Origin: Candidatus Woesearchaeota archaeon
GTDB taxonomy: Archaea > Nanobdellota > Nanobdellia > UBA10117 > ARS21
Assembly: GCA_964344605.1 (NCBI GenBank)
Contig: CAYFNR010000004.1
Coordinates: forward strand, 1-61,972
Length of the DNA stretch: 61,972 bases
Direction: 5' to 3'
Positions within the stretch are counted from its first letter, which is position 1; each line of letters starts with the position of its first letter. The notes beneath the pieces were generated by a model. That model searched no databases, was not told the origin of the DNA, and saw nothing but the letters and a program-made list of their open reading frames with translations. The position numbers were made by a program, and so were the translations under genes. Positions 48,014 through 61,972 of this stretch are shown in pieces.

Positions 48014-48050
48014 TCAAATGTTTTTTAACCTTTTCACTTCTTAAAAGTTT

Positions 48051-49301
48051 ATGATTTTACTTAAGAATTGCCGATTTGTTGTTACTCAAAATTCTCAAAA
48101 GGACATTCTCGAAAATGTTGACATCTTGATTAAAAAATCAAAGATATCCAAGATAAAATCTGATTTGTCTGTGGACTTAGCTGAAGAAATAGATGCATCA
48201 AAAAAGATTGTTATGCCTGGTTTAATTAATTTACATACTCATGCTGCTATGACTCTGTTTCGGGGGGCTGCTGACGATATGCCTTTTCATAAAGCCTGGC
48301 CCAAAATAATCTGGCCTGCTGAAGCAAAGATGAAAGAAAAGGATTACATTCACGGGAACACTCTGGCGGCAAAGGAAATGATTATGACTGGAACAACTTG
48401 TTTCAATGATATGTATTTTCGCCTTGATCTTGCCGCTGAAATTTTTCATAAATCGGGTTTGAGAGCATTTTTGAGTCATGCAACCTTTGACACTTTTGGT
48501 GAATTCAACGCTGAAAAATTTAAAGAAAGTTCTACAGAATTGAAGAAAATATCTCATCTCGTTAGAACACTAAAATCAGATACCATAAACTTTGCTTTGG
48601 GTCCACATGCTCCCTATACAAACTCAGGAGATTTGCTGGATAAGAGTAGGGGCTTGGCTGAAGAATGGAGGGCCTTGCTACATATCCACTTATGTGAAAA
48701 CAAGCAAGAAGTTGACGACTTCCAAAAAGATAAAGGACTAACAGAAATAGAGTTTTTAGATAGTATTGGGTTCTTAAGCAACAAAGTTATTGGAGCTCAC
48801 TGCTGTCACCTAACTGACAAAGATATAGATATTATCTCCAAAAATGATGTATCAATTGCACATTGTCCTTCCTCAAATATGAAACTTGTGTCTGGAGTTC
48901 TACCTCTAGAAAAGCTGCAGAAAGCAGGAGTTAATGTAGGATTAGGCACAGATGGATGTGCATCAAATAATTCTTTAGACATGTTTCAAGAGATGAAAAT
49001 TTGTGCTTTAAAACATAAAAGTGCAAATTCAAATGCAACAATTGCCTCAGCTCAAGAAGTTTTAGATATGGCCACAGTAAACGGAGCAGAGGCTTTGAAG
49101 ATAAAAGCTGGTTCTATTGAAGAAGGGAAATTGGCAGACATAATTTTAGTGGATCTTAATGAAGTCAAACTTCAGCCAACAACGAAGAAAAATGTGATTT
49201 CGAATTTAGTGTATTCTTGTTCCGGGGAATGCGTATCAGATACGATAGTCAACGGGAAAATATTGATGAGGAATAGGAAATTAATATCCAGATTCTCTTA
49301 G
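48051..49301 (+). CDS. amidohydrolase, MTA/SAH deaminase family
   Basis: NLHTH, PHAPY, HIHLCE, AHC, HCPSSNMKL, LGTDG. Confidence 0.9.
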   Translation: MILLKNCRFVVTQNSQKDILENVDILIKKSKISKIKSDLSVDLAEEIDASKKIVMPGLINLHTHAAMTLFRGAADDMPFHKAWPKIIWPAEAKMKEKDYIHGNTLAAKEMIMTGTTCFNDMYFRLDLAAEIFHKSGLRAFLSHATFDTFGEFNAEKFKESSTELKKISHLVRTLKSDTINFALGPHAPYTNSGDLLDKSRGLAEEWRALLHIHLCENKQEVDDFQKDKGLTEIEFLDSIGFLSNKVIGAHCCHLTDKDIDIISKNDVSIAHCPSSNMKLVSGVLPLEKLQKAGVNVGLGTDGCASNNSLDMFQEMKICALKHKSANSNATIASAQEVLDMATVNGAEALKIKAGSIEEGKLADIILVDLNEVKLQPTTKKNVISNLVYSCSGECVSDTIVNGKILMRNRKLISRFS

Positions 49302-49505
49302 TATTCTCAGCTTTAGCTCTTCCATCTCCTTAATTATTTGCGTATAATTTTTGTTTGATTCCGCCCATCTCTTAATTGCAGTACTAACAGCGTGAGACGG
49401 CCCCTGTTCAGGAGTGATAGCTGCTGCTTGATGCAAACCTGTTTCGGTGGCTAATCTATTTATTTCACGCACTCTTTCAAAATATTGTTTAGGAGTCCAA
49501 GGCAT
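49281..49505 (-). CDS. hypothetical protein, 74 aa
   Basis: ATG ORF, helical. Confidence 0.55.
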   Translation of the reverse strand: MPWTPKQYFERVREINRLATETGLHQAAAITPEQGPSHAVSTAIKRWAESNKNYTQIIKEMEELKLRILRESGY

Positions 49506-49565
49506 ACAAAGACCTTACTTTGGGAGAATAAAAATCTTTTTAGCTTCCACTTAAGTAGTAATTAC

Positions 49566-49691
49566 ATGGCAGAATGTGGTAAAGGAGTATGTGGTGGAAT
49601 CCATAACTGCTCTTTGGATGAAGAGCACGAAGGAAACTGTTACTGTCCTGTTTGCAAAGGATTTAGAAAACCTACAACAGAAAAAGAATAA
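49566..49691 (+). CDS. 41 aa Cys/His-rich small protein
   Basis: MAECGKGVCGGIHNCSLDEEHEGNCYCPVCKGFRKPTTEKE; inner ATG of ORF 49485. Confidence 0.6.
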   Translation: MAECGKGVCGGIHNCSLDEEHEGNCYCPVCKGFRKPTTEKE

Positions 49692-49757
49692 GCAAAAAAG
49701 TATATGATGTTTGCTTGCCTAAGTAACACTTATATATTTTCGAAATAATCGATATAC

Positions 49758-50492
49758 ATGAATGAGTTAGGTGCTTTATTTTTGATTGGTGCTATTTTTC
49801 TTACAATAATATTAATCAATGATATAAGAAACAAGAACTTCAGAAACATACCAAAATATTTTATTGTGGGTGGAATAGTAAGTGTTTTGGATATAATCAT
49901 AGAAACAATAGGTACATTTAATGGATTTTGGACATACAATGAGTCTTTCTATTTTTTATTCGGCACAGTTCCTATTGAACTGCCCTTGATGTTTTTTGTT
50001 GCGGGATCTATAGGAAAATGGATACATAACATAACCAAAAAGATACAATACAATCTACAGTTGAATATAATATTCTTTGCCTTAACTTTCTTAGGAACAA
50101 TTATCTATTTGAGATCCACTGTTCTGTTGGGAGTAAATGAGAATATAATTTTATTCACAGTTCCTGCGGCGTTATGGGGATTCCATACCATTAAAGAAGA
50201 TATTGACAAAGCAAGCGTTCTAATTGTTGCACTTTTTGTTTCACTTCTTGACTACATTACAGAGATAATTATAATTGGCAGGGGCAGCTATGCATATGCT
50301 GTTGGGTTCTCTCATTTGACTCCAATCAATTATGGCTTGCTCACTATAGCCTTTTTTGGTCTGATGGAAAGACTAGAAGTATTAGATAAACTACTTGATT
50401 ATCCTATTATTAAACAAATTATCCAAACCGCAGGGGTAAAAAGAAGAGAGTATTTCAGCAAGATTAAACGAAGGCTCCCAAGAAGAAAGTAG
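49758..50492 (+). CDS. polytopic membrane protein with two related halves
   Basis: About 7 TM segments; repeated D.I.E..G...G.(W/Y).Y pattern. Confidence 0.75.
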   Translation: MNELGALFLIGAIFLTIILINDIRNKNFRNIPKYFIVGGIVSVLDIIIETIGTFNGFWTYNESFYFLFGTVPIELPLMFFVAGSIGKWIHNITKKIQYNLQLNIIFFALTFLGTIIYLRSTVLLGVNENIILFTVPAALWGFHTIKEDIDKASVLIVALFVSLLDYITEIIIIGRGSYAYAVGFSHLTPINYGLLTIAFFGLMERLEVLDKLLDYPIIKQIIQTAGVKRREYFSKIKRRLPRRK

Positions 50493-50717
50493 TTATTTTT
50501 TAGATAGCTTATTTATTTTTCTTTCAATTCTTGTTAAATCAGACTGCATTTTTGAAACAATCTCTAGCTTCTTTCGGTTTATAACTAAATTTACAACTGC
50601 AAAAATTAACCAAACAACAATAACAAGTCCAAGTGCTTGCAACCAAAGCCCAATCTTCCCTAACTCAGTAAAAAGTAAAGTCGCAACTTCTGCGGAAACA
50701 TTAATCGGGTCAACCAT
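50493..50717 (-). CDS. small single-TM + coiled-coil protein
   Basis: TM segment followed by MQSDLTRIERKINKL. Confidence 0.7.
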   Translation of the reverse strand: MVDPINVSAEVATLLFTELGKIGLWLQALGLVIVVWLIFAVVNLVINRKKLEIVSKMQSDLTRIERKINKLSKK

Positions 50718-50756
50718 GATTAATTAAAACAATAGAAGTATTTAAATTTAAAGGTA

Positions 50757-50831
50757 TGCCCCCTGCGGGATTTGAACCCACGTCACGTGGCTGAGAACCA
50801 CGTATGATTGACCGGACTACACCAAAGGGGC
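50757..50831 (-). tRNA. tRNA-Glu(CTC)
   Basis: CGTGG-TTCTCAG-CCACG anticodon arm. Confidence 0.95.
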
Positions 50832-50964
50832 AGTAGAAAATAAACTGAAAAGCTGCCTTTTAAGGGTTGCGGTAGAGAAACTTTCTAAAACTAAATACAA
50901 AGACAAAAAAAGTCTAACATAAAAAACTGTTGTATGGGCTATTTCCCGGGTATCCTATCTCTTC

Positions 50965-51051
50965 CTACTTTAGGAAGAACCACCATAGGAGAAGTAGAAC
51001 AACGACGAGTCCTACCCATACTCTCCAGTCTTTTAGATTTAATCCAGCCAT
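50965..51051 (-). CDS. 28 aa single-TM micropeptide (not in ORF track)
   Basis: MAGLNLKDWRVWVGLVVVLLLLWWFFLK*; TTTAAAA box about 30 nt upstream (leaderless-like). Confidence 0.6.
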   Translation of the reverse strand: MAGLNLKDWRVWVGLVVVLLLLWWFFLK

Positions 51052-51109
51052 AATAACACATTAAAGTATGTGCTGTATTTTAAAGGTTTCGGAAAGCAGT
51101 TGCCACTTC

Positions 51110-52168
51110 TCAATAAAAATCGACATCTAATTTTTCAGCAAATTTGTATGCTTTAGTGACATTAAGTAATGAGAATATATTATCCATGATGAAGTCCGGG
51201 CACGATTGCCACAATTTATGTATTATAATGCCTCTTATGATAGGTAATCTAAACTTTGAATGGGCCTTTTTCTGGTATATCTTCTTGAGGAACTTTTCAT
51301 TGTATGTCTCAGACTCCAAGGCAACCGCGGCAGCATGAGCGCATAATTGCGAAGCTATTAGAGAGTAAGTTATTCCTCCCCCACTGAAAGGTTTTACTTG
51401 TGATGCTGCATCTCCAATCAGCAAAACTCTATCTGAAACTATTTTATTCTGATACTTGCACTTTATTGCTCCACTTACATCTGGTTTTGGAACATATCCT
51501 AGTTTGGATTTGGTAAAATCTTTGTAGTATTTGTAAGCACTGTGTTTGGTTGCTAACCCAATTCTAGCTCTCTTTTTGTTTATTGGAACAAACCAGGCAA
51601 AATATTTGGGAGCCACCTTAGATCCGAAATGAAGTTCTGCAAAACTGTCGTCGAATTTGCCCCCAACCGTAGACTGTATTCCAAAGAATTGCGCTTTAGA
51701 ATCTAGGCCACAAGACCTTGCCACTTCAGATTGAGGACCGTCTGCGCCAATGAGAAGCTTTGCCTTTAACTTTCCTTTGGAAGTACTGACCTCAATATGA
51801 TCTCTTCTCAACTTTTTACTTTTGAATGTTACTCCTGGTTTAATTTCAACCCCGGCTTTCTTAGCACGTTTAATCAAATAACCATCTAATTTTCCACGAT
51901 CCATTACTAAAAATTCTGAAGCATTTAGGTAAAAATTCTTTTTGTTTGGAGAATAGAACTTGGCTTTGGAAATTTTGTTGTATCTGTACCGTTTTGGAAA
52001 ATCAGGTAATAATTCTAAAAATCTGTGACTTACAAATCCAGTACACTGAATAGGATTATTTATTTCTATGCGACTGTCAATCAAAAGAACTTTTGCTCCT
52101 TTATCTGCTAAAAGTTCTGCGGTTCTTGCTCCAGCAACTCTGCCACCCACAACAACTGCATCATACAT
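51110..52168 (-). CDS. geranylgeranyl reductase-family FAD oxidoreductase
   Basis: VVVGG Rossmann start, QCTG, IGADG, YFAWFVP, LIGDAASQVKPFSGGGI. Confidence 0.88.
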   Translation of the reverse strand: MYDAVVVGGRVAGARTAELLADKGAKVLLIDSRIEINNPIQCTGFVSHRFLELLPDFPKRYRYNKISKAKFYSPNKKNFYLNASEFLVMDRGKLDGYLIKRAKKAGVEIKPGVTFKSKKLRRDHIEVSTSKGKLKAKLLIGADGPQSEVARSCGLDSKAQFFGIQSTVGGKFDDSFAELHFGSKVAPKYFAWFVPINKKRARIGLATKHSAYKYYKDFTKSKLGYVPKPDVSGAIKCKYQNKIVSDRVLLIGDAASQVKPFSGGGITYSLIASQLCAHAAAVALESETYNEKFLKKIYQKKAHSKFRLPIIRGIIIHKLWQSCPDFIMDNIFSLLNVTKAYKFAEKLDVDFY

Positions 52169-52233
52169 GATTGCTCAAAAGAGTGGTCAATACTTAAAAA
52201 ACTAACCTATCGGCCCTAAAAAAATAAGTGTAA

Positions 52234-52254
52234 GAGGACGTTCGGTACGCCCTC
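52234..52254 (-). terminator. GC-rich 8-bp hairpin followed by a T-tract, downstream of tRNA-Arg
   Basis: GAGGGCGT-ACCGA-ACGTCCTC then TTACACTTATTTTTTT on the minus strand. Confidence 0.45.
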
Positions 52255-52258
52255 AGCA

Positions 52259-52358
52259 CGGGCCTAGGAGGATTTTCATGCTTCCCAGAAGGTGAGCTTT
52301 TGAACCCCCACCGACCGGGCCGAAACCGGTCGCACTATCCAAGTTATGCTATAGGCCC
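52259..52358 (-). tRNA. tRNA-Arg(TCG) with 26-nt non-canonical intron at 59/60 (52273-52298)
   Basis: ACCGG-TTTCGGC-CCGGT anticodon arm; T-arm GGGGG-TTCAAA|intron|T-CCTCC; TTCA/TGAA central helix. Confidence 0.88.
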
Positions 52359-52428
52359 ATAAATTACAAGGGCTTTTATGGATTTAAAAAGATGATGTTT
52401 TAAATATTACTACTAAATATGTACTAAA

Positions 52429-52704
52429 ATGGACACATATTATTTTATCATACCTTTTGTTAATGTCGACACAGAAGAAGTCAAACGGGCTAAGGATTCT
52501 TTGGGAATTTCTTTGGAAAGCCTTGTTTTTCTTTTAGAAAATGAATTTAGTAAACTTAAATTAAGATTTAAAGGTGATAAAGACTCAGAGTATAGTTTGG
52601 ACCAAATTGAAAATATGATTCGCGGAGGACCGCATTATTATATTTTTGATTCTGAGAGTAAGAAAAGAATTTTAGAAATCTACAAAAGACGAAGTAAAGA
52701 TTAA
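52429..52704 (+). CDS. hypothetical protein, 91 aa
   Basis: ATG ORF after a TTTAAA box. Confidence 0.6.
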   Translation: MDTYYFIIPFVNVDTEEVKRAKDSLGISLESLVFLLENEFSKLKLRFKGDKDSEYSLDQIENMIRGGPHYYIFDSESKKRILEIYKRRSKD

Positions 52705-53072
52705 GGACTTATTCTCCTTGGAGTCCTAGGAAAAGCTATACAATCTTAAAAGGCTTAGAACAGTATATTGAAAAAATCGGCTTGAGTATTGAAGTAATAG
52801 CTGCTCAAAGCTCCGAGGCAAGTATAACTTCAGAGGTAGATAGACCTTTTGTGAGCAAAGCTGCTGAGGCTTGTTTGTATGGGTTTAGTAAGGAAACTTT
52901 GTATGTGGGTTGTAGGCGGTTCAATTGAGTCTATACTTCCGCTTCAAAGGGTGTTCCCACACGTTACAATGATTCTTCTAGCGCAGAGCTTAATGTCTGA
53001 TGGCTATCATACACCAACGAGGAGTTCCAGTTCAAACAAGCTGTTAATGGAATAAAAGCTATTGCCAAATAG
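52704..53072 (+). pseudogene. C-terminal remnant of an M20-family dipeptidase, two frameshifts
   Basis: Stitched translation ...YVGC/GGSIESILPLQRVFP...MSDGYHTP/(N)EEFQFKQAVNGIKAIAK* resembles the GGSI...HxPNE terminus of M20 peptidases. Confidence 0.65.
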
Positions 53073-53304
53073 TTAAGTTCGATTGATGATTTAGAGAGTT
53101 GTTTTAGACTCTTGGAAATCTTTATAAATCCCTAAGGGCAAATATTTTTATGAAGATTGAGGACACTCAAAGCGTAGAATCAGTTGAAGCAACCAAAGGT
53201 TTAACGGAATTAGGTGAGTGCCCCAATCCACAGTGAAACCTTTTTAAACAGCACTGTCCTACATTATTTTTACTGTCTAATTAAGACAAAGTTAATTAGG
53301 CAAT

Positions 53305-53412
53305 GCCTGGGTAGCTTAGTAGGTAGAGCGTACGGCTGTTATCACAACGAGCTCCACGGAACTTGCTGTGTAAGTAACCGTGAGGTCGGAGGTTCGAGTC
53401 CTCCCCCAGGCG
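53305..53412 (+). tRNA. tRNA-Asn(GTT) with 35-nt intron at 37/38 (53342-53376)
   Basis: GCCTGGG acceptor stem; TACGG-CTGTTA|intron|A-CCGTG; AGGTC variable loop; TTCGAGT T-loop. Confidence 0.9.
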
Positions 53413-53421
53413 CTTATAAAC

Positions 53422-53706
53422 ATGAAAGTAGACAAGAATTTGGTTGATAGGGTAGCTAGGATTGCTCGAATTAATCTTAGTGAAAAAGAGAAGCAGAAAT
53501 TTGCTGGAGACCTAATGGACGTTCTTAAAGCGTTTTCTATTATAAATAAGGTAGATACAAGTAATATGTCTATGAGTTTGCAACCAATTACCTTGCTTGC
53601 TAAGTACAATGAGGATATACTAACAAAATGTCTTACTCAAAAAGATGCTTTGGCAAACACGAAACATAAAGAGAAAGGATATTTTAAAGGCCCAAGATTG
53701 AAATGA
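53422..53706 (+). CDS. gatC: Asp-tRNA(Asn) amidotransferase subunit C (set 1)
   Basis: RVARIARINL, ALAN, GYFKGP; true ATG is 9 nt after the tRNA. Confidence 0.9.
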   Translation: MKVDKNLVDRVARIARINLSEKEKQKFAGDLMDVLKAFSIINKVDTSNMSMSLQPITLLAKYNEDILTKCLTQKDALANTKHKEKGYFKGPRLK

Positions 53707-55025
53707 AAAAGGTTAGTGATGAAGCTAAAGAACTCAACGAAAGATACGGTTGTTTTATTACTATTGCCAGCAAATGGCAGTATAAAAAAGGCCCATTATC
53801 AAAGTATATTATCGCTGTAAAAGATAACATTAGTACAAAAGGCATACGAACTACCGCAGGTAGTAAGATACTTGAAGGCTATGTGCCTGTTTTTGATGCA
53901 ACTGCCATTACTAAAATCAAAGAAGCAGGAGGTAGGATCATTGGAAAATGTTCTATGGACAATTTTGGATTTGGGACCTTCTCAATGAATACTGATTTTT
54001 CCGTACCTAAAAACCCATATGATATAAGCAGGAGTGCTGGAGGAAGCTCTGGTGGCGTAGCTGCTTATGTTGCTGCATCCAAATTTAAAGTACTTGGTTT
54101 GGGGCAATCTACGGGTGGCTCTATATCCTGTCCTGCTGCTTTTTGTGGAGTAGTCGGATTGACTCCCACATATGGTTTAGTTTCCAGATATGGACTGATT
54201 GACTACTCAAACTCTATGGATAAGATAGGATGTATAACAAAAACTGTTGTGGATGCTGCACTTTTGTTGTCAGTAATTGCAGGTTATGACCCAGCAGATT
54301 CTACTTCAATAAAACGAAGAAAGATAGATTACAGAAAAGCATGCGGTAAAACGTTGAAGGGGGTAAAGATCGGTGTACCTAAGGAATATTTTGTTGATAT
54401 AGATAATAATATTAAATCAGCAACTGAAAAAGCCATAGCAGAGTTGAAACTACTGGGTGCTACTGTGCGCAAGGTATCCTTACCAACGACTAAGTATGCT
54501 CTTGCTGCATATTACATCATTGCCACTGCTGAGGCCTCGACTAACTTAGCAAAATACTCTGGAATGCGTTATGGCTTGGAATTACCCCTCGACTCTCCAT
54601 TCAATGAGTATTTTTCAAAAGTACGTGCTACAGGTTTCGGTGAAGAAGCAAAGCGCAGAATAATATTAGGCACCTTCGCTCGCATGGCTGGGTATAAAGA
54701 CGCCTATTACTTTAAGGCTCTAAAAGTACGTACGAAGGTCATTGAGGACTTCAAAAAAGCATTCAGGTCAGTTGATGTAATTGCTGCACCAACAATGCCA
54801 ATAATAGCTCCAAAATTCTCTGATATAGAGAAAATGTCGCCTATACAACAGTATAATATAGACAAACTCACTTGCCCTTCGAATTTGGCGGGTTTACCAC
54901 AGGTATCCATACCTTGTGGAACAGTAAAATCTATGCCCATCGGCTTACATTTGCTAGCAAATCACTTTGAGGAAGAGAAATTAATTCGTGTGGGATCAGC
55001 TTTTGAAGCTAGGAGAGCAAAATGA
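53703..55025 (+). CDS. gatA: amidotransferase subunit A (set 1)
   Basis: AVKDNI, GGSSGG, STGGSISCPA amidase signature. Confidence 0.93.
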   Translation: MKKVSDEAKELNERYGCFITIASKWQYKKGPLSKYIIAVKDNISTKGIRTTAGSKILEGYVPVFDATAITKIKEAGGRIIGKCSMDNFGFGTFSMNTDFSVPKNPYDISRSAGGSSGGVAAYVAASKFKVLGLGQSTGGSISCPAAFCGVVGLTPTYGLVSRYGLIDYSNSMDKIGCITKTVVDAALLLSVIAGYDPADSTSIKRRKIDYRKACGKTLKGVKIGVPKEYFVDIDNNIKSATEKAIAELKLLGATVRKVSLPTTKYALAAYYIIATAEASTNLAKYSGMRYGLELPLDSPFNEYFSKVRATGFGEEAKRRIILGTFARMAGYKDAYYFKALKVRTKVIEDFKKAFRSVDVIAAPTMPIIAPKFSDIEKMSPIQQYNIDKLTCPSNLAGLPQVSIPCGTVKSMPIGLHLLANHFEEEKLIRVGSAFEARRAK

Positions 55026-56413
55026 GTGATATAAGAGGAAAAATTGGTCTGGAAATCCATGTGCAGCTTGCTACTAAGACAAAGCTCTTTTGCGGGTGCT
55101 CAACAAATGCGGATAAGCCAAACACAGCAACATGTCCAATATGCCTAGGTATGCCTGGAGCCAAGCCGGTTTTGAACAAGAAAGTCATTAAGTTAGCCAC
55201 GAAGCTAGCCTCAGCTTTTGGCAGCTCGGTGCAAAATGAAATGGCATTCTCAAGAAAGACATATTTTTATCCAGATATGTCAAAAAATTACCAAATTACT
55301 CAATACGAAAAGCCATTGGCTCTGGGTGGTTTTCTTAAAGTAGGTAAAAAGAAAATCCACATACGTAGAATACACATAGAAGAAGATCCTGCAAGTTTAA
55401 AACATCCTGGTGGTATAGGTGAGTCAAATTTTGTTCTTGCAGATTACAATCGCTCTGGCATACCTCTAGTTGAGATTGTTACAGAACCAGATATAGAAAC
55501 CCCCTATGAAGCGCGAGCATTTATAACCAGCCTGCTTAATGTTTTAGGGTATTTACATGTTTATGACCCACATAATTTTAGTCTAAGAGCGGATGTAAAT
55601 GTATCTTTGAAAGGAGGACAACCAGTTGAGATTAAGGAAATAACGGGCTCCAAAGAGATAGAAAAAGCTATCGCCTTTGAAATCGTTCGGCAAGAAAGCT
55701 TGCTTAAGAGTGGTATAAAAATCGAGAAGCAAACTCGTCACTATAGTACAGATACTGGTTCAACTGAGTTGATGCGAACAAAGGAGACTGAAGAAGAGTA
55801 TGGATATATATTTGATGCTGATTTGCCTGTGTTTAAGATAGATAAAAAATTGGTTGAGAGTATCAGAAAATCCTTGCCTGAACTACCTTATCAAAGACTG
55901 CAGAGGCTCAAGATACAGTATAATCTTACTGAAACTATCGCTGAGCAAATTGTTGTTGATAAAGACCTCGCAGATTGCTTTGAATTAGTTGCAAAACATA
56001 TAAGTAGCAAGCTAGTAGCAAGTTGGTTTACAGGATATCTGAGAAAAACATTAAGCTACAACTCACTTAGTTTTAAAGAAACAGGGCTCAATGCCAAGCA
56101 CATGCTAAATTTTATGGGCTTAGTTAAAGAACACGCAGTTACAGACCGTGGCGGTGAGATGCTTCTAAGAAAATTGGTGCTAGAGCCTCAAAATCCACGA
56201 CAGCTTGCCAGCAAATTAAAGATTCTAAAGATATCCGAAGCAGAACTAAGAAAGATTGTTTTGAGGATTTTAAATGAGAATAAAAAAGCCGCCGAAGACT
56301 ACAAATCTGGAGAATCTAAAGCCTTGCAATTCCTCATTGGCCAAACTATGCGAAGGACAGGCGGCAGGGCCGATGCGAAAATTGTTGGTAAACTAATTGA
56401 AAATATGATTTGA
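55022..56413 (+). CDS. gatB: amidotransferase subunit B (set 1)
   Basis: IGLEIHVQL, SRKTYFYPD, HIEED, DYNRSGIPLVEIVTEP. Confidence 0.95.
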   Translation: MSDIRGKIGLEIHVQLATKTKLFCGCSTNADKPNTATCPICLGMPGAKPVLNKKVIKLATKLASAFGSSVQNEMAFSRKTYFYPDMSKNYQITQYEKPLALGGFLKVGKKKIHIRRIHIEEDPASLKHPGGIGESNFVLADYNRSGIPLVEIVTEPDIETPYEARAFITSLLNVLGYLHVYDPHNFSLRADVNVSLKGGQPVEIKEITGSKEIEKAIAFEIVRQESLLKSGIKIEKQTRHYSTDTGSTELMRTKETEEEYGYIFDADLPVFKIDKKLVESIRKSLPELPYQRLQRLKIQYNLTETIAEQIVVDKDLADCFELVAKHISSKLVASWFTGYLRKTLSYNSLSFKETGLNAKHMLNFMGLVKEHAVTDRGGEMLLRKLVLEPQNPRQLASKLKILKISEAELRKIVLRILNENKKAAEDYKSGESKALQFLIGQTMRRTGGRADAKIVGKLIENMI

Positions 56414-56545
56414 AACTCCACATAAAAAGTTTTCATCAAAGTTTATTGACTGTGCAACTCAGCTGCTTCGCAGTTTCAAATCAAGTATGCTAGACTAAGC
56501 CCTATAAACCAAAAAACTTATAAAGGTTAGATTAAGCACCACCCC

Positions 56546-57667
56546 ATGACAAAAGAAGTTGTTACATTGGTCACAGGTGGTACTATCGATACTCGCAAGA
56601 CCCCATCAGGCACAAGGGAGCTTGCCAACTTAGCTCCACAAGGTGGGGAAGATTTCCCTTACGGATATGACAAAACTGGAAATCCTATACGAATAGATAG
56701 CTCTGACTTGTATGGCCCATACCACTGGCCAAAATTAGCTAAGCGTGCTATAGAATACCTCAACGATAACAATGTGGGTGGAATAGTAATAACCTACGGA
56801 ACAGATACGATGACTCGAACTGCTCAATTCCTTCAGCTCGCATTGAGGGACCTTACAAAGCCTGTAATAATTACTGGTGCTCAACGCGGTCAAGATGAAC
56901 CACTGAGCGACGGTGAAGGAAATAAATTAGCTGCTATGCTAGCTGCCAAAAAGATAGAAAGTGGCCTTGTGGGATTAGTATTTAATGATTTGGGGGGTGG
57001 CCGATTTGGTGGCTTATACATTAGTTTGGATGATCAAAGAGAACCTTGTGTAAATTTCCGAGTAATGAACCCGGAAAACTCCAGCAAGGAAAACCATGAA
57101 GCCGTTACTCCTTTTAAGACCCGAAGACCGGATTATGGAGAAGTTACTGCTGATGGTCACTTTGAACTATACGATGAAAATTTACCAAATGTTGGAGTTA
57201 ACTCTAAATCAGATACGTGGTTCGATGATAAGTGGAATTGGAATGTTGATACTATTAGAGTAGATCCAACAATGACTTCTGCAAAGCTTAAGAAAAGATT
57301 ACAAGATCTTGACGGAGTAGTCTTGGAAGGACTAGGAGCAGGTCACTTCCGAGCAGATGAAAATTCTTTGGGAAATATTGACTCATTATTGGACCCAGTC
57401 AGAGATTTCAATGGCCCTATAATAATGACTTCAGAGGCAGATGGAACAGTTTCTCCTAGTTTATATGGTATTGCTAAAGTTATGTATAGCAACTGCCCAA
57501 ACTTAATACCGGGTGGTGACCTTAGACCAGAAAATGCTGAATTGCGTCTAATGTATCTTTTGGGACATGGATTGGTCACCAGTGATATAAAGAAAAAGAT
57601 AGGTGGCAGATATAAGGGACATACTATTTTGACTCTTCCATTTGAAGAAATACATAAAAGAATTTAA
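56546..57667 (+). CDS. L-asparaginase (AnsA/GatD-like domain, divergent)
   Basis: TGGTI, YGTDTM, TGAQR...SDG, VLEGLGAG, GDLRPE. Confidence 0.8.
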   Translation: MTKEVVTLVTGGTIDTRKTPSGTRELANLAPQGGEDFPYGYDKTGNPIRIDSSDLYGPYHWPKLAKRAIEYLNDNNVGGIVITYGTDTMTRTAQFLQLALRDLTKPVIITGAQRGQDEPLSDGEGNKLAAMLAAKKIESGLVGLVFNDLGGGRFGGLYISLDDQREPCVNFRVMNPENSSKENHEAVTPFKTRRPDYGEVTADGHFELYDENLPNVGVNSKSDTWFDDKWNWNVDTIRVDPTMTSAKLKKRLQDLDGVVLEGLGAGHFRADENSLGNIDSLLDPVRDFNGPIIMTSEADGTVSPSLYGIAKVMYSNCPNLIPGGDLRPENAELRLMYLLGHGLVTSDIKKKIGGRYKGHTILTLPFEEIHKRI

Positions 57668-57677
57668 ATTAGATTTA

Positions 57678-59072
57678 TTAAGTATTGTTATTCACCCTTT
57701 CTTGTAAGATTTCTTTAACTTCAAGAGGGTCTGCCCTGCCTTCTGTCAGTTTCATAACTTGACCCATCATAAATTTATCAATTTTCTCACGAGGTTTGCC
57801 TGAGGAATATACATCTGGATTTCGATTCAAAGCCTCGTCAACTGCTTCCACTATTTCGTCATGTATCATGCTCTCTAGATTGTGGATTTCGACATAATCG
57901 GCAGGTACAATATCATTGACCACAACCTCCCCAACTACTTGCCTTGCTACTTGGGTGGTTATCCTTCTACCTCTAGACATCTCAAGTATGCTAGAGATTC
58001 TTTCGGGTGTTAGATAAGAATCGGATAGTTCTATTCCACTTTCAGATAACGCACTAGCAATAGCTCCTGTAAAGAATGAGGCAAGCTCAGCAGGATGGAT
58101 TCCGCTGACTTCTAATGTCTGATCAAATAACTCGGCCATTCGATAATCAGTAGTAAGTTTCCGAGCGTGCTCATGACTAAGCCCTGCCTCGAGATATAGT
58201 TCCCTTTTATCTATGGGGCCAACTCTAGTTATCTCCTGCACTTCTGCTAATTTATCTTCAGATATAATTATTGAAGTTAAATCTGGGTCGGGTATATACC
58301 GGTAGTCAGCTGCCACTTCCTTGCTTCTTAGAGGAATTGTAGAAAGAGGATTTTCGACAAAGCCCCTGGTTTCTAGTTTGATTGGCATGCCTCGTTTAAG
58401 CAATCTGGATTGGCGCATTAATTCATACTCAGCTGCTGCTTGTATATTACTTGCAGAATTAATGTTCTTAACCTCAACACGATTATTTCCTTCTATTGAT
58501 ATGTTTGTATCAGCCCTCATAGAACCTTGTCCTTTCATAAGTTTGCCTGTATAACTCAATGTCTCTCTTATCGTCTTTGCAAATTCTCTTGCTTTAGCAG
58601 GTGAAGTCAAGTCCGGCTCTGTAACAATCTCAACTAGAGGTACACCTGTACGATTGAAGTCTATGGTTTTAGAAAGCAAATCGTACCGTCCAGGGTCCTC
58701 TTCAATGTGTACTTCAGTTATTCTAATGCCATCCAGCAGACCATCCACTCCAATTGGAACACTTGTTCGTTGATAACCAGAAGGTAAGTCTGGATAAAAA
58801 TAGTGCTTTCTTTGCACAGGCAAGCCTTTATCAACCACAACATTACAGTTTAACAGCAGAGCAACTTCAATTACTGTATCAAGAGCTCTCTGATTAATTG
58901 GCATAGGTTTGCTACCTGGCAAACTCATGCAGATTGGACATATATTCGTGTTTGTATCTGCCTCATAAAAATTTGTAGGACACTTGCAGAATAATTTTTG
59001 ATCTGTATCCAGCTGATGGTGAATTTCTAAACCTATTTTAACTGAATTATATCTCTTGCTTGACATAGCCAT
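57678..59072 (-). CDS. gatB: amidotransferase subunit B (set 2, Methanobacteriales-like type)
   Basis: IGLEIH, RKHYFYPDLPSGYQRTS, HIEEDPG, FNRTGVPLVEIVTEPD. Confidence 0.93.
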   Translation of the reverse strand: MAMSSKRYNSVKIGLEIHHQLDTDQKLFCKCPTNFYEADTNTNICPICMSLPGSKPMPINQRALDTVIEVALLLNCNVVVDKGLPVQRKHYFYPDLPSGYQRTSVPIGVDGLLDGIRITEVHIEEDPGRYDLLSKTIDFNRTGVPLVEIVTEPDLTSPAKAREFAKTIRETLSYTGKLMKGQGSMRADTNISIEGNNRVEVKNINSASNIQAAAEYELMRQSRLLKRGMPIKLETRGFVENPLSTIPLRSKEVAADYRYIPDPDLTSIIISEDKLAEVQEITRVGPIDKRELYLEAGLSHEHARKLTTDYRMAELFDQTLEVSGIHPAELASFFTGAIASALSESGIELSDSYLTPERISSILEMSRGRRITTQVARQVVGEVVVNDIVPADYVEIHNLESMIHDEIVEAVDEALNRNPDVYSSGKPREKIDKFMMGQVMKLTEGRADPLEVKEILQERVNNNT

Positions 59073-60399
59073 TCACGGATTCAAATGCTTTCATAGCACG
59101 GATCAGATCCTCCTCCCTAAAGTGATTAGCCTGAATTTGAATTCCAACTGGAGTATCTTCTATTACTGGCCCAGGCACAACGCCCGCACAAATTCCTGAG
59201 AGATTCGCTGGAACAGTGAGAAAATCGTATCTGTACATATCCTCCTGTTCTACTTGATCGCCTAATTTGTGTGGCAGTTTAGGAGTGACAGGGCTAACTA
59301 ATATGTCACATTCACCAAACGCCTTGCTAAACGCTTCAGAGATAAATGCTCTTGCTTTAAGAGCCCGACCATAAAATGCGTCAGTATATTCCTTTTGGCT
59401 TATTAACGAGCCACCTTTGATTCTCGCTAGGACTTCAGGTCCAGCGACCTCTTCGATAGGTTTACAGTAGCGCACGCCATTAAGTTTGCGGGTAGCTGAG
59501 AAGAACTCAACATAGTTTATGAGGTAGTACGCGTCAAGAGCTTTCTCTACGTGAGGTAAACTCACCTCAACTAGTTTTAGATTATCAAATTCGCTTACAG
59601 CGGCTTCAGTCGTTTCCCTAACTGCATCATATATTCGTTCATCAAGCATAATCTTCTTAAAATCATCAGACATGCCAATTCTTAGCTCTCTATCTTGGAA
59701 GTTTTGGGCAGCTTCAACATAATTTCCCACAGATCTTGCTGATGTAGTTGAATCACGCTCTGAATGTCCCGATATACACTGTAGCAAAGCTGCAGCTTCG
59801 TCAACCGTCTCAGCAAATGGACCTATTTGTTCTAAACTCATCGATAAATCTATCAATCCAAATCGTGATACTCTACCATATGTTGGCTTAATTCCGACTA
59901 CTCCGCAGTGAGATGCTGGATTTCTGATTGAGCCCCCCGTGTCTGAACCAAGCGCCATGTCGCACAATCCAGATGCTACTGCCACTGCACTGCCGGAACT
60001 TGAACCCCCTGGTATTCTTCCTTCAGCCACGGGATTTAGAGTAGGACCAAAATAGCTTGTCTCACCTGAGCTGCCGCATGCAAATTCATCCATATTGGTC
60101 ATTCCAACAATTACTGCTCCATTTTCACGCAAGAGATGCACTACATCTGCATCAAATGGAGAGATATAATCTTCTAGAGTTCTGGAAGCACAAGTTATCT
60201 TAGACCCAATTACATTAATATTCGATTTAACTCCAATAGTACATCCTTCCAAGAGCAAAATATCTCCATTATCTGCACTGTCCTGAACCTTCTGCGCATC
60301 AGAAATTGCTTTCTCTCCGCGAGAAGAAATGAAAGCATTGAATTTATCAGCATCTATCCTCTCCAGTGCTCTTTCTACTTTTTCTGGTATATCACCCAT
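59047..60399 (-). CDS. gatA: amidotransferase subunit A (set 2)
   Basis: GVKSNI, NMDEFACGSS, PGGSSSGS, SDTGGSIRNPA, YYLINYVEFFSATR. Confidence 0.93.
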   Translation of the reverse strand: MGDIPEKVERALERIDADKFNAFISSRGEKAISDAQKVQDSADNGDILLLEGCTIGVKSNINVIGSKITCASRTLEDYISPFDADVVHLLRENGAVIVGMTNMDEFACGSSGETSYFGPTLNPVAEGRIPGGSSSGSAVAVASGLCDMALGSDTGGSIRNPASHCGVVGIKPTYGRVSRFGLIDLSMSLEQIGPFAETVDEAAALLQCISGHSERDSTTSARSVGNYVEAAQNFQDRELRIGMSDDFKKIMLDERIYDAVRETTEAAVSEFDNLKLVEVSLPHVEKALDAYYLINYVEFFSATRKLNGVRYCKPIEEVAGPEVLARIKGGSLISQKEYTDAFYGRALKARAFISEAFSKAFGECDILVSPVTPKLPHKLGDQVEQEDMYRYDFLTVPANLSGICAGVVPGPVIEDTPVGIQIQANHFREEDLIRAMKAFESVNGYVKQEI

Positions 60400-60631
60400 C
60401 TTCGTCTTCCTCTCTGTTATCTGGCGTGTAAACATACAAATTATCTGCTATACGAGTTGGTGCTAACTCCAAAATCATTTGTCTGTACTTGAATTCTTCT
60501 TCGGGTCCATCTGACCTAGTAATACTTTTGGGCGAAATTGAATACCTACTCTCAATTTCAGGAATATCATTAAGAGATTCTGAAAATGATTTTAAGAGAG
60601 CCAGCACCCTCTTATCTACACTTTCTGCCAT
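60392..60631 (-). CDS. gatC: putative divergent GatC (set 2)
   Basis: Size and position between aspS and gatA; FSESL...R.D pattern of short archaeal GatC. Confidence 0.6.
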   Translation of the reverse strand: MAESVDKRVLALLKSFSESLNDIPEIESRYSISPKSITRSDGPEEEFKYRQMILELAPTRIADNLYVYTPDNREEDEDG

Positions 60632-61878
60632 TATAAGGTATAATTTTGCCTTGGTGTTCTTGGGACAAGTGTTGCTCTTCGGACATTATCTAACCCCATC
60701 AAAAGCTGTGTTAAGCGATTTAAGCCCATTCCAAACCCACCATGCGGTGGCATACCTTTGTCAAAGAATCGTAGATGATCCCCATAATGTTCTGGTGAAA
60801 GCCCTAAATCTAATATGTTTTCTTCCCTCCTTCTTCTATCATGTTCTCTCATGCCACCAGAACATATCTCAACGCCCTTGTAAAGCAAATCAAAGGTCTC
60901 TGTTAAGCCATCCCCAACCCTTAAAGCATAAAATGGCTTCTCCATCTCAGGATAATGTGTAATAAAAACGAAGTCTGCGCCTTCGCTCTCTTTTATTCGT
61001 CCGCCAATTACGACTTCATCGCTTGCGGTTAGCCTGTGCTCCTTCAAAATCTCCACAGGATACTCGCTACTTAGAAGTTCCTTAGCTCCTGCATAAGACA
61101 TAGTATAGAACGAGTTTCCGCTGACTTTCTCAAGTCCCAAGCCTCTACGTTCAATAGACGCATTTATTGAGTGAATTAGTGCGTCTCTGATAGCGTTCAT
61201 CACGCTTTCTAGGTCCGAAAATGCAATTTCGGCATCAACAGACGTAAATTCGCATAGATGTCGTGGAGTATTATGTTGTTCGGCCCTCCAAACAGGACCA
61301 ATTTCATAAACCCTCTGTACGCCTGAAGCTAAGACCAATTCTTTGTAAAGCTGGGGGCTCTGAGATAAATACATTTCGTCATCAAAGAACTCCACTGGGA
61401 AGTAATCTGTTCCGCCTTCAGTAGGAGAATTAGTCAGCTTAGCAGTATGGATTCTCATAAAGTCGTTATTATGGAAGTACTCAGATAAATAATGAGTTAA
61501 ATCACTTAGCATGATAAAGGTACTTTTGTCTAGTTTGTCCCTCATGGTCAAGAAACGCCAGTTTAATCGAGTGTCTAATCCCAGCTCAGCTTCTGTATCT
61601 TTCTCAACATTGAAGCTCGTAACCTTGGATGGGGAATAAAGACCAATTTCGGCCAAATGCAGCTCTAACCCACCTGGTGCTCTGTCGTCTTCTTTGAAAT
61701 TACCACGGAGTGAAACAACATCGCCATGGTTGAGCGCGGAGATTATTTCGGAATCATCATCACTTAGCAAATCTCTATTAGATACAACTTGCGCGTATTT
61801 GTCATGATCATTAACAGTAATAAAAGTCTTTTTACCGTGACGCCGTACCTGATGCACTATCCCATTTAAAGTTTCCAT
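60631..61878 (-). CDS. aspS: non-discriminating aspartyl-tRNA synthetase (archaeal type)
   Basis: OB fold with RRHG (His) and RAPGGLE (Pro) ND signatures; SQSPQLYK, WRAE, GMPPHGGFGMGLNR. Confidence 0.92.
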   Translation of the reverse strand: METLNGIVHQVRRHGKKTFITVNDHDKYAQVVSNRDLLSDDDSEIISALNHGDVVSLRGNFKEDDRAPGGLELHLAEIGLYSPSKVTSFNVEKDTEAELGLDTRLNWRFLTMRDKLDKSTFIMLSDLTHYLSEYFHNNDFMRIHTAKLTNSPTEGGTDYFPVEFFDDEMYLSQSPQLYKELVLASGVQRVYEIGPVWRAEQHNTPRHLCEFTSVDAEIAFSDLESVMNAIRDALIHSINASIERRGLGLEKVSGNSFYTMSYAGAKELLSSEYPVEILKEHRLTASDEVVIGGRIKESEGADFVFITHYPEMEKPFYALRVGDGLTETFDLLYKGVEICSGGMREHDRRRREENILDLGLSPEHYGDHLRFFDKGMPPHGGFGMGLNRLTQLLMGLDNVRRATLVPRTPRQNYTL

Positions 61879-61972
61879 GATACTACCCTTCAGAAATGAC
61901 TATATAAATGTTTCGATGTGTTCTAGTGGCAATTATGTGCGGAGCGAGGACTAATGTCATAACTTCGCTTGA

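What the first reader, a model, noticed from the sequence alone, without database searches (positions are those of the whole stretch)
53305..61878. Two unrelated GatCAB operons face each other around an asparaginase, one with tRNA-Asn and one with ND-AspRS
Seen: tRNA-Asn-gatC-gatA-gatB (+), asparaginase (+), then aspS-gatC-gatA-gatB (-). The sets are clearly different subfamilies (AEASTNLAKY versus YVEFFSATR in GatA; YPDMSKNYQITQ versus YPDLPSGYQRTS in GatB), so this is not a recent duplication. All have intact-looking catalytic motifs. Established: archaea normally need one GatCAB for Asn and GatDE for Gln. A reduced genome keeping 8.5 kb of apparent redundancy is unexpected. Inference: either xenologous replacement caught in progress, or division of labour (one set for Glu-tRNA(Gln) in place of GatDE, or different amide donors), with set 2 + AspRS acquired as a ready-made transamidosome cassette.
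Basis: partly seen in the sequence, partly recalled or inferred. Interest (0 to 1): 0.72.

Follow-up and report, generated by a model that had tools for sequence, protein, structure and literature searches.

The report
Two asparagine-tRNA amidation modules replacing AsnRS
A tiny symbiotic-type archaeon has lost the enzyme that loads asparagine directly onto tRNA and, at that same spot in its genome, carries two unrelated imported gene sets for making asparagine on the tRNA; one set is missing from part of the natural population, so a pathway replacement is seen part-way through.

Summary
The window holds an intron-bearing tRNA-Asn followed by gatC1A1B1 (+), an asparaginase-like gene (+), and aspS2-gatC2-gatA2-gatB2 (-). 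The two sets share only 32-37% identity.

1. The 568-kb genome also has GatD and GatE, one GluRS and a second AspRS. It has no AsnRS, GlnRS or AsnB. So neither GatCAB stands in for GatDE.
2. All ten family relatives lack GatB and carry asnS at exactly this syntenic locus. G000 keeps only the last 14 codons of asnS (52702-52746).
3. Set 2, aspS2 and the asparaginase-like gene form one 5,506-bp segment (56450-61955). A public contig from the same study lacks exactly this segment, while other assemblies span its left junction or carry its pieces. A transposase frame runs across the right junction, so the short form looks like a deletion.
4. Set 1 is DPANN-type. The segment's proteins are acidic and have no close relatives (at most 45%, 38% and 29% identity to any public protein). 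AspRS2 has the His/Pro residues seen in non-discriminating AspRS structures.

Among 401 genomes sampled from the phylum, only this one has two GatB genes.

Best reading: two redundant, imported routes to Asn-tRNA(Asn) at the former asnS locus, with one now being lost. Read-level coverage could not be checked.

The parts
52702..52746 (-). Remnant of asnS: the last 14 codons plus the stop codon
   Evidence: It translates to DCIAFPRTPRRISP*. AsnRS of relative G007 ends DCIAFPRTPTRFAP*. Relatives carry an intact asnS at the syntenic position.
53305..53413 (+). tRNA-Asn(GTT), the only tRNA-Asn gene in the genome. It has a 35-nt intron (53340-53374), a 5-nt variable loop AGGTC and a G1-C72 pair.
   Evidence: Rfam 58.4 bits; ARAGORN with introns allowed; loop parsed.
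53422..53706 (+). gatC1 (94 aa), starting 9 nt after the tRNA
   Evidence: TIGR00135 78.6 bits against a cut-off of 47.1.
53703..55025 (+). gatA1 (440 aa), DPANN type, overlapping gatC1 by 4 nt
   Evidence: Pfam Amidase 390 bits. TIGR00132 475.4 bits, just below its cut-off of 481.1. 45-63% identical to the GatA of 53 DPANN loci and 70-72% to L030/L031.
55022..56413 (+). gatB1 (463 aa), DPANN type
   Evidence: NF004012 512.7 bits against a cut-off of 338. It nests in a 28-row DPANN clade with SH-aLRT 100. Best hits are 62-68% identical.
56450..61955 (.). Strain-variable 5,506-bp segment, absent from ENA contig ERZ930070 k127_32369
   Evidence: L021 matches window 45022-56449 and then C6:39 onward, which corresponds to window 61956. 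The window end overlaps the start of C6 by 55 nt. L022, L023 and L025 cross the left junction. L052-L054 carry inner pieces at 99.9-100% identity.
56546..57667 (+). Divergent asparaginase/GatD-like gene (373 aa), without the GatD N-terminal domain
   Evidence: Pfam Asparaginase N-terminal domain 94.6 bits and C-terminal domain 43.1 bits. All NCBIfam models score below cut-off; the best is GatD at 98.6 against 310. The best solved structure is GatD 1ZQ1, and residues 135-220 are unaligned. Best homologues anywhere are 24-29% identical.
57678..59072 (-). gatB2 (464 aa). Its stop lies 10 nt from the asparaginase stop, in convergent orientation.
   Evidence: NF004012 436.1 bits against a cut-off of 338. 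The best public hit is 45% identical (MSBL1, Hadesarchaea, Methanococcales). It falls outside the DPANN clade (AU p = 0.04).
59047..60435 (-). gatA2 (462 aa), overlapping gatB2 by 26 nt
   Evidence: TIGR00132 495.2 bits against a cut-off of 481.1. 29-36% identical to DPANN GatA. Lys, the GGSS motif and the TGGS nucleophile are present.
60392..60631 (-). gatC2-like gene (79 aa). Its start codon shares one base with the aspS2 stop codon.
   Evidence: Weak matches to TIGR01827 (24.5 bits) and NF000681 (23.8 bits), both below cut-off. It sits in the GatC position between aspS and gatA. The exact sequence occurs in three other assemblies.
60631..61878 (-). aspS2 (415 aa), archaeal-type AspRS with the His/Pro signature of non-discriminating enzymes. 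A TTTATATA box lies on the minus strand at 61901-61908.
   Evidence: NF003483 385.1 bits against a cut-off of 353. His9 aligns with W26 and Pro68 with K85 of T. kodakarensis AspRS 1B8A, as in 1WYD and 1N9W. The best of 1.84 billion representatives is 32-38% identical. The TATA box was read from the sequence.
61911..61972 (+). Start of a 5'-truncated DDE_Tnp_1 transposase remnant that continues into contig C6. Its frame runs across the right junction at 61955/61956.
   Evidence: Frame translation. The Pfam DDE_Tnp_1 match covers residues 4-150 of the extended ORF, at profile positions 35-200.

Best explanation
The genome belongs to a DPANN-type archaeon whose family relatives charge tRNA-Asn directly with AsnRS. 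Those relatives encode asnS between tRNA-Arg and tRNA-Asn, upstream of VIT1-RIO1-S15-S3Ae.

In this lineage asnS has been destroyed, and only its last 14 codons remain. Asn-tRNA(Asn) must therefore be made indirectly: an AspRS puts Asp on tRNA-Asn and a GatCAB amidates it. GatDE still serves Gln.

Two non-orthologous modules for the indirect route now sit at the old asnS locus.
- Module 1 is tRNA-Asn-gatC1A1B1. It is of the DPANN type and was shared horizontally with a distant DPANN lineage.
- Module 2 is a 5.5-kb segment. It holds a translationally coupled aspS2-gatC2-gatA2-gatB2 operon with its own TATA box, and a convergent asparaginase/GatD-like gene. AspRS2 carries the residues typical of non-discriminating archaeal AspRS, so this operon is a self-sufficient Asn-transamidosome cassette.

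Both modules act on the single tRNA-Asn, so they are redundant rather than split between Asn and Gln. Module 2 has been deleted in part of the natural population, which marks it as the dispensable, outgoing copy.

What is shown: gene content, synteny, the asnS remnant, the two alleles, and the composition and phylogeny of the parts.

What is inferred: the activities of the enzymes, complex formation, the order of the two acquisitions, and that AspRS1 can charge tRNA-Asn in cells that lack the segment.
For: Gene identities.

Genome inventory: three GatB/GatE-type genes, of which the one on C5 is GatE (559.6 bits) and lies near GatD (494.2 bits). There is one GluRS-type gene, two amidases and two AspRS, with no gene reaching the AsnRS cut-off. 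There is no AsnB.

Relatives: G001-G010 show only a GatE-level hit and all carry a gene that scores as AsnRS (398-440 bits; over the 414-bit cut-off in G001, G005 and G007).

Synteny: relatives have tRNA-Glu, tRNA-Arg, asnS, tRNA-Asn, then VIT1-RIO1-S15-S3Ae. The asnS 3' remnant is.

Two alleles. Pieces of the segment occur in three other run assemblies. The transposase frame continues across the right junction, so the short allele is a deletion.

Module 1 is foreign: GatA/GatB are 67-72% identical to L030/L031, while the other genes of those contigs are only 28-37% identical to G000.

Module 2 is distinct: its proteins have pI 4.9-5.4, against 9.2-9.65 for GatA1, GatB1, GatD, GatE and AspRS1. 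Its tetranucleotide distance is at the 96.5th percentile. Its best homologues are 45%, 38% and 29% identical. Synonymous codon use is host-like, so it is resident DNA and not a contaminant.

Substrates: AspRS2 has His/Pro at the W26/K85 positions. tRNA-Asn has a 5-nt variable loop; tRNA-Asp and tRNA-Gln have 4 nt. PMC2330236 reports that archaeal GatCAB uses this difference.
Against: - No expression or activity data exist for any of these genes.
- AspRS1 has the same residues (Glu/Ser) at the two specificity positions as the AspRS of relatives that use AsnRS and have no GatCAB. It may therefore be discriminating. In that case AspRS2 would be essential and the modules not fully redundant.
- The genome is 89% complete, so an AsnRS elsewhere is not strictly excluded, although the syntenic site is contiguous and holds only a remnant.
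- GatB2 departs from three otherwise invariant residues (E284V, R292L, E317D), more than any of 53 other GatBs.
- gatC2 is only weakly recognisable.
- The exclusion of GatB2 from the DPANN clade is only marginal in the AU test (p = 0.04, with the group named after seeing the tree).
Confidence: 0.62

Rival explanations
1. The modules are complementary, not redundant. The family's own AspRS1 is discriminating, so the segment's AspRS2 is the only source of Asp-tRNA(Asn) for either GatCAB. The deletion allele would then be a defective or dependent minority type, or would carry the cassette elsewhere in the genome.
For: AspRS1 has Glu/Ser at the W26/K85 positions, identical to relatives that use AsnRS and lack GatCAB. 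Only AspRS2 has the His/Pro pair found in the non-discriminating structures 1WYD and 1N9W.
Against: The deletion allele assembled as the long 51.8-kb contig in run ERR2281802, whereas the segment appears there only as a 1.6-kb contig. This suggests the deletion type is common. G019, G021 and G025 combine GatCAB with a single Ser/Ala-85 AspRS, so Pro85 is not required for GatCAB to have a substrate.
Confidence: 0.2
2. The modules are specialised by nitrogen source or condition. The asparaginase/GatD-like protein would feed module 2, either as a GatD-like ammonia donor or by turning imported Asn, which is useless without AsnRS, into Asp plus ammonia. Module 1 would use glutamine through GatA1.
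For: The asparaginase-like gene lies inside the segment, 10 nt from gatB2. Its best structural and family matches are to GatD. Genome G039, which also lacks AsnRS, has aspS, gatB-gatA-gatC and an asparaginase in one cluster. M. thermautotrophicus GatCAB uses Asn as well as Gln (PMC2330236). Earlier notes of this scan report asparaginase-like partners next to aspS-gatCAB operons in bacteria; these are unchecked.
Against: GatA2 keeps its full catalytic triad, so it needs no substitute. The Lys region of the asparaginase-like protein cannot be aligned. None of 80 DPANN gatB loci has an asparaginase within 8 kb.
Confidence: 0.1
3. Assembly or binning artefact: the segment belongs to another organism and was joined to this contig by mistake.
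For: The segment sits at the contig end. Its proteins are compositionally unlike the host's, and its tetranucleotide distance is at the 96.5th percentile. The exact GatB2 and AspRS2 proteins are on record only from this genome's contig.
Against: The left junction is crossed by a k=127 contig from another run (to 56777) and by two Logan contigs. A 66,803-nt record carries both GatB1 and the whole asparaginase gene. The window end overlaps C6 by 55 nt, and relatives' synteny confirms that C6 genes follow this locus. The transposase frame is continuous across the right junction. Synonymous codon use is host-like.
Confidence: 0.03
4. Division of labour between amino acids: one GatCAB makes Gln-tRNA(Gln).
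For: Bacterial GatCAB is bifunctional, which is general knowledge (PMC2330236).
Against: GatD and GatE are present and intact. Both tRNA-Gln genes have A1-U72 and 4-nt variable loops. PMC2330236 reports that archaeal GatCAB rejects such loops.
Confidence: 0.03

Closest known systems
Thermus thermophilus / Deinococcus radiodurans AspRS2 + GatCAB (Asn-transamidosome, PDB 3KFU)
   Same: An extra, horizontally acquired, archaeal-type non-discriminating AspRS coexists with the housekeeping AspRS and works with GatCAB on tRNA-Asn. No asparagine synthetase is present, so Asn is made on the tRNA (PMC4206432). AspRS2 here matches 1N9W/3KFU at 234 bits and shares the Pro in the L1 loop.
   Different: Those bacteria keep AsnRS and have one GatCAB. 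Here AsnRS is gone, there are two GatCABs plus GatDE, the host is an archaeon, and the extra AspRS lies in one operon with its own GatCAB.
Clostridium acetobutylicum duplicated gatCAB and triplicated aspS
   Same: This is the only bacterium among 547 genera surveyed that has an additional GatCAB and extra AspRS genes (PMC4206432). From my recollection of Saad et al. 2012 (JBC 287:20382, not retrievable here), one aspS-gatCAB set forms an operon encoding a whole transamidation pathway.
   Different: It is bacterial, controlled by a T-box, and AsnRS and split asnB genes are present. It has not been reported as a strain-variable segment or as sitting at a former asnS locus.
Canonical archaeal arrangement: GatDE for Gln plus one GatCAB for Asn (for example Methanothermobacter thermautotrophicus)
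   Same: GatDE and GatCAB coexist and AsnRS and GlnRS are absent. tRNA-Asn has a 5-nt variable loop and tRNA-Gln and tRNA-Asp have 4 nt (PMC2330236).
   Different: There is a second, non-orthologous GatCAB with its own AspRS. Both GatCABs are foreign to the family, which otherwise uses AsnRS.
GatB::AspRS and GatA::AspRS fusion proteins
   Same: The synthetase is physically tied to the amidotransferase. Such fusions appear among the distant homologues of AspRS2 (P0277, P0338, P0375, P0273).
   Different: Here the genes are separate though translationally coupled. The segment's proteins are no closer to the fusions (30-37% identity) than to other homologues.

Membership tests
GatCAB amidotransferase (module 1) | GatA of the amidase-signature family with a Ser-cisSer-Lys triad | tested here: met
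   Pfam Amidase 390 bits. Lys in AVKDN, GGSSGG and TGGS are present. TIGR00132 scores 475.4, just under its cut-off of 481.1.
GatCAB amidotransferase (module 1) | GatB with a catalytic cradle domain and a YqeY tail; a GatC subunit | tested here: met
   GatB_N 296 bits and GatB_Yqey 106 bits. NF004012 512.7 against 338 and gatC TIGR00135 78.6 against 47.1. All 52 invariant GatB positions are kept.
GatCAB amidotransferase (module 2) | GatA triad; GatB cradle plus tail | tested here: met
   TIGR00132 495.2 against 481.1 and NF004012 436.1 against 338. Motifs are present. 49 of 52 invariant GatB positions are kept; E284, R292 and E317 are changed.
GatCAB amidotransferase (module 2) | A recognisable GatC subunit | tested here: inconclusive
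   The 79-aa ORF in the GatC position scores 24.5 bits (cut-off 52.1) and 23.8 bits (cut-off 64), and has no Pfam hit.
GatCAB amidotransferase (both modules) | [quoted passage not shown] | not testable with these tools
   This needs enzyme assays.
Archaeal-type non-discriminating AspRS (aspS2) | Class IIb AspRS without the bacterial GAD insertion, scoring as aspartate--tRNA(Asn) ligase | tested here: met
   415 aa. NF003483 385.1 against 353; TIGR00458 308.6 is below its cut-off of 368.4. Best solved structures are the archaeal-type 1B8A, 1WYD and 1N9W.
Archaeal-type non-discriminating AspRS (aspS2) | His at the W26 position and Pro at the K85 position of T. kodakarensis AspRS. The meaning of these positions is recalled from Feng et al. 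2003, PNAS 100:5676, which could not be retrieved here. | tested here: met
   His9 and Pro68 align to these positions, and 1WYD and 1N9W carry Pro there. AspRS1 has Glu/Ser.
Archaeal-type non-discriminating AspRS (aspS2) | Aspartylation of tRNA-Asn as well as tRNA-Asp | not testable with these tools
   This needs aminoacylation assays.
Asn-transamidosome | A stable complex of ND-AspRS, GatCAB and tRNA-Asn | not testable with these tools
   Only the coupled operon suggests it: the overlaps are 1, 44 and 26 nt.
Type I L-asparaginase / GatD | Asparaginase N- and C-terminal domains with a Thr nucleophile and a Thr-Asp-Lys triad | tested here: inconclusive
   Both Pfam domains score above cut-off and TGGT and YGTDT are present. 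All NCBIfam models are far below cut-off, and the Lys region 135-220 aligns to nothing.
Type I L-asparaginase / GatD | GatD-specific N-terminal domain and an adjacent gatE | tested here: not met
   The match starts at GatD residue 94. The genuine gatD and gatE lie on contig C5.
Mobile genomic island | Integrase or transposase of its own, terminal repeats, target-site duplication | tested here: not met
   There is no integrase. No terminal repeats or duplication are seen at the junctions. Only a truncated IS remnant abuts the right end.

The most novel reading that the evidence does not exclude
The 5.5-kb segment may be a portable 'asparagine-decoding cassette' from an unsampled archaeal lineage. 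It would combine a non-discriminating AspRS, its own GatCAB, and an asparaginase/GatD-like enzyme that recycles Asn, which is useless once AsnRS is gone. Its arrival would have let this lineage discard AsnRS, and with it the need to import Asn. A second imported module (tRNA-Asn-gatCAB1) is now displacing it. That would be a serial replacement of one step of genetic-code decoding at one locus, still segregating in a natural population.
Probability: 0.25. Interest if true: 0.75.

Novelty: new variant of a known kind. Interest (0 to 1): 0.6.

Why it matters
The indirect route to Asn-tRNA is usually treated as the ancestral state that AsnRS later displaces. In this family, which uses AsnRS and has no asparagine synthetase, one lineage has gone the other way.

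It appears to have done so by importing two different gene sets into the very locus where asnS lay. The remnant of the old gene and a segregating deletion of one new set are both still visible.

This gives a natural, testable case for three questions:
- Why indirect pathways persist or return, an open question raised in PMC2330236.
- How an essential decoding step can be exchanged without a lethal intermediate.
- Whether AspRS specificity must change first.

The segment also supplies an AspRS, a GatCAB and an asparaginase-like protein that are far from anything else in public data.

Tried and rejected
Independent assemblies were used instead.
- Exact-protein look-ups of GatB2, AspRS2 and the asparaginase found no other record. 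gatC2 did.
- The paper that defines the W26H/K85P determinants, and Saad et al. 2012, could not be retrieved. Both are cited from memory only.
- PRJEB17505 is mentioned in no paper held.
- I tested whether tRNA-Asn was imported together with gatCAB1. Mature tRNA identity is 84% both to L030 and to relative G002, so this is unresolved.
- I tested whether the segment's proteins are close to GatB::AspRS or GatA::AspRS fusions. They are not: identity is 30-37%.
- I looked for terminal repeats or a target duplication at the segment ends and found none.
- The GatB tree has no bacterial rows, so the placement of GatB2 relative to bacteria is untested. GatB2 is a long branch next to the GatE outgroup.
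- No GatA tree was built; only identity ranges were computed.

Full report
**Observation.** The window is contig C4 of a 568-kb, 17-contig genome estimated at 89% complete.
- an intron-bearing tRNA-Asn(GTT) at 53305-53413 (Rfam; ARAGORN only when introns are allowed);
- gatC1, gatA1 and gatB1 on the plus strand, with 4-nt overlaps;
- an asparaginase-like gene;
- gatB2, gatA2, a gatC-like ORF and aspS2 on the minus strand.

GatA1 and GatA2 are 37% identical, GatB1 and GatB2 32%. Both GatA proteins keep the Lys/Ser/Ser motifs and both GatB proteins keep the cradle motifs. GatB1 keeps all 52 positions invariant in 52 other GatBs. GatB2 keeps 49, with its changes clustered at residues 284-317.

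**Genome inventory.**
- A third GatB-like gene on contig C5 is GatE (559.6 bits). GatD lies 1.7 kb from it (494.2 bits).
- There is one GluRS-type gene and so no GlnRS.
- There are two amidases.
- There are two archaeal-type AspRS: AspRS1 on C8 and AspRS2 in the window, 33% identical to each other. Nothing reaches the AsnRS cut-off.
- There is no asparagine synthetase B.
- There is a single tRNA-Asn gene.
- tRNA-Asn has a 5-nt variable loop. tRNA-Asp and both tRNA-Gln genes have 4 nt, and tRNA-Gln has A1-U72. PMC2330236 reports that archaeal GatCAB accepts 5-nt loops and rejects 4-nt loops.

The idea that one GatCAB replaces GatDE is therefore not supported.

**Relatives and the asnS locus.**
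- All ten genomes of the same family show only a GatE-level hit to GatB. All carry a gene that scores as AsnRS, at 398-440 bits: over the 414-bit cut-off in G001, G005 and G007, just under it in the other seven, and well above their AspRS at 281-304 bits. None has AsnB.
- In G001, G002, G006 and G007, asnS lies next to tRNA-Asn and close to the orthologues of VIT1, the RIO1 kinase and ribosomal proteins S15 and S3Ae. tRNA-Glu(CTC) and tRNA-Arg(TCG) flank it in G001, G002 and G007.
- In this genome the same frame is kept. tRNA-Glu is at 50756. tRNA-Asn is at 53305. VIT1-RIO1-S15-S3Ae lie at the start of contig C6, whose first 55 nt are identical to the last 55 nt of the window.
- Between tRNA-Arg and tRNA-Asn there is no asnS. 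On the minus strand at 52702-52746 the sequence reads DCIAFPRTPRRISP-stop, against DCIAFPRTPTRFAP-stop at the end of the G007 AsnRS.

The absence of AsnRS is therefore a real loss at a contiguous, syntenic site, and not a gap in the assembly.

**The 5.5-kb segment.**
- A public MEGAHIT contig from run ERR2281802 (L021, 51.8 kb) matches window 45022-56449 at 99.97% identity. It then continues directly into C6 from position 39, which corresponds to window 61956. It lacks exactly 56450-61955, which is the asparaginase-like gene, gatB2, gatA2, gatC2 and aspS2 with its promoter region.
- The occupied form is also real. A k=127 contig from ERR2281801 runs through the left junction to 56777, and Logan contigs from two other runs cross it.
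- A 66,803-nt record carries both GatB1 and the entire asparaginase gene.
- Short contigs from ERR2281800, ERR2281802 and ERR2281803 carry aspS2-gatC2-gatA2 at 99.9-100% identity.
- In ERR2281802 the deletion form is on the long contig and the segment is on a 1.6-kb contig, which suggests the segment is the minority form there.
- No repeats or target duplication mark the ends.
- The reading frame of a truncated DDE_Tnp_1 transposase runs from about 61911 across the right junction into C6, and the Pfam alignment covers those residues. An insertion would not bring in-frame transposase sequence with it. I therefore infer that the short allele arose by deletion from the long one.

**Origins of the two modules.**
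- Module 1 nests in a strongly supported clade of DPANN GatB: Aenigmatarchaeota, Nanohaloarchaea, Woesearchaeota, Micrarchaeota and Nanoarchaeia.
- Its closest relatives are two NCBI assemblies (L030, L031). They share the intron-bearing tRNA-Asn-gatCAB arrangement at 67-72% protein identity, yet their other genes are only 28-37% identical to this genome. Since the family otherwise lacks GatB, module 1 is also an import.
- In L030 an AsnRS (461 bits) lies about 1 kb downstream of gatB. That looks like a state with both routes present.
- Module 2 is different in kind. GatB2's best public hit is 45% identical (MSBL1, Hadesarchaea, Methanococcales, Methanobacteriales). GatA2 is 29-36% identical to DPANN GatA.
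- AspRS2's best match among 1.84 billion cluster representatives is 32-38% identical. The asparaginase-like protein's best match is 24-29%.
- GatB2 falls outside the DPANN clade, but it is a long branch and the AU test rejects inclusion only marginally (p = 0.04).
- All four large proteins of the segment are acidic (pI 4.9-5.4) with a low Lys/(Lys+Arg) ratio. GatA1, GatB1, GatD, GatE and AspRS1 have pI 9.2-9.65.
- The segment's tetranucleotide distance is at the 96.5th percentile, but its synonymous codon use is within the host range. This fits long residence, or a donor with a similar base composition. It argues against a stray fragment from an unrelated organism.

**Function.**
- AspRS2 aligns His9 and Pro68 with W26 and K85 of the T. 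kodakarensis enzyme. These are the residues carried by the S. tokodaii enzyme (1WYD), and Pro68 also matches the T. thermophilus AspRS2 (1N9W, titled non-discriminating in the PDB). That these two positions set tRNA-Asn acceptance is my recollection of Feng et al. 2003; I could not retrieve the paper.
- aspS2, gatC2, gatA2 and gatB2 overlap by 1, 44 and 26 nt. A TTTATATA box lies about 27 nt upstream of the aspS2 start codon. So the operon reads as a self-contained Asn-transamidosome cassette.
- AspRS1 has Glu/Ser at the two positions, exactly like its AsnRS-using relatives, so its specificity is open.
- Two things argue that AspRS1 can serve. The deletion allele appears common. And G019, G021 and G025 pair GatCAB with a single Ser/Ala-85 AspRS.
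- The asparaginase-like protein is closest to GatD but lacks GatD's N-terminal domain and an alignable Lys region.
- A cluster of aspS, gatBAC and an asparaginase also occurs in G039, which lacks AsnRS. None of 80 other DPANN gatB loci has an asparaginase nearby.
- A sensible but untested role follows from the loss of AsnRS. Free Asn is then useless for translation unless it is deamidated to Asp.

**Comparison with what is known.**
- The nearest cases are the acquired archaeal-type AspRS2 that works with GatCAB in Thermus and Deinococcus, and Clostridium acetobutylicum. The latter is described as unique among 547 bacterial genera in having an extra GatCAB and three AspRS (PMC4206432).
- I found no report of an archaeon with two GatCABs plus GatDE.
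- In a sample of 401 genomes of this phylum, only this one has two GatB genes. None of 80 named DPANN loci has a second gatB within 8 kb.
- The parts are known kinds. What is new is the combination: two xenologous modules at the former asnS locus, with one segregating as a deletion.

**Verdict.** This is a real, unusual and well-anchored case of pathway replacement. It is a new variant of a known kind, of moderate to high interest to people who study aminoacyl-tRNA synthesis and genome reduction. The main open points are the tRNA specificity of AspRS1, the allele frequencies, and whether module 2 is active.

Noticed in passing
G000 contig C5 9854-11275 (not in the window); also relatives: GatE here is only 473 aa. 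It matches the 630-position GatE profile in two stretches, the best covering profile positions 4-264, so an internal part of canonical GatE seems to be missing. GatE-like frames of about 470-490 aa recur across the order.
   Followed up: no
window 52760-53060 (+): Frame-shifted coding remnants, for example ...VVGGSIESILPLQRVFPHVTMILLAQSLMSDGYHTP... and ...EEFQFKQAVNGIKAIAK*. They look like the C-terminal part of a decayed gene lying between the asnS remnant and tRNA-Asn. The identity was not searched.
   Followed up: no
L030 (GCA_053535815.1, JAIYIM010000080.1) 406-5851: A distant DPANN lineage has an intron-bearing tRNA-Asn, gatCAB, a nucleotidyltransferase pair and asnS in one row. Direct and indirect Asn-tRNA routes are therefore encoded side by side.
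   Followed up: partly
L059 (Aenigmatarchaeota, JAUXAV010000091.1) 67-4072: An asnS-like gene sits between gatA and gatB. Among 80 DPANN gatB loci, asnS lies within 8 kb in 5, aspS in 6 and tRNA-Asn in 7. In Micrarchaeota the tRNA-Asn lies directly after gatB.
   Followed up: partly
L041 (G039 contig C11) 2733-9624: A cluster of aspS, an unknown 415-aa gene, gatB-gatA-gatC and a divergent 331-aa asparaginase, in a genome of the same class that lacks AsnRS. The asparaginase is 28% identical to the one in the window.
   Followed up: partly
L050, L051 (G025, G019): gatD, gatC, gatA, gatB and gatE lie in one cluster in these relatives, which also carry AsnRS.
   Followed up: no
proteins P0277, P0338, P0375, P0273: Distant homologues of AspRS2 include GatB::AspRS fusions of 882-955 aa and a GatA::AspRS fusion of 963 aa.
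   Followed up: partly
window 56406-56417 and 56472-56483: A perfect 12-nt inverted repeat brackets the left junction of the segment. One arm overlaps the gatB1 stop codon and the other lies inside the segment. Its meaning is unknown and it may be chance.
   Followed up: no
window 57678-59072 (GatB2 residues 284-317): GatB2 alone among 54 GatBs lacks three otherwise invariant residues (E284V, R292L, E317D) and a near-invariant Tyr (Y296A). All lie between the two Pfam domains of GatB.
   Followed up: partly
window 53305-53413 compared with L135-L138: tRNA-Asn of this genome has a 35-nt intron and a D-loop one base longer than in family relatives, whose tRNA-Asn has no intron. L030 and L031 share the intron position and the loop features. 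Overall identity does not show whether the tRNA was imported.
   Followed up: partly
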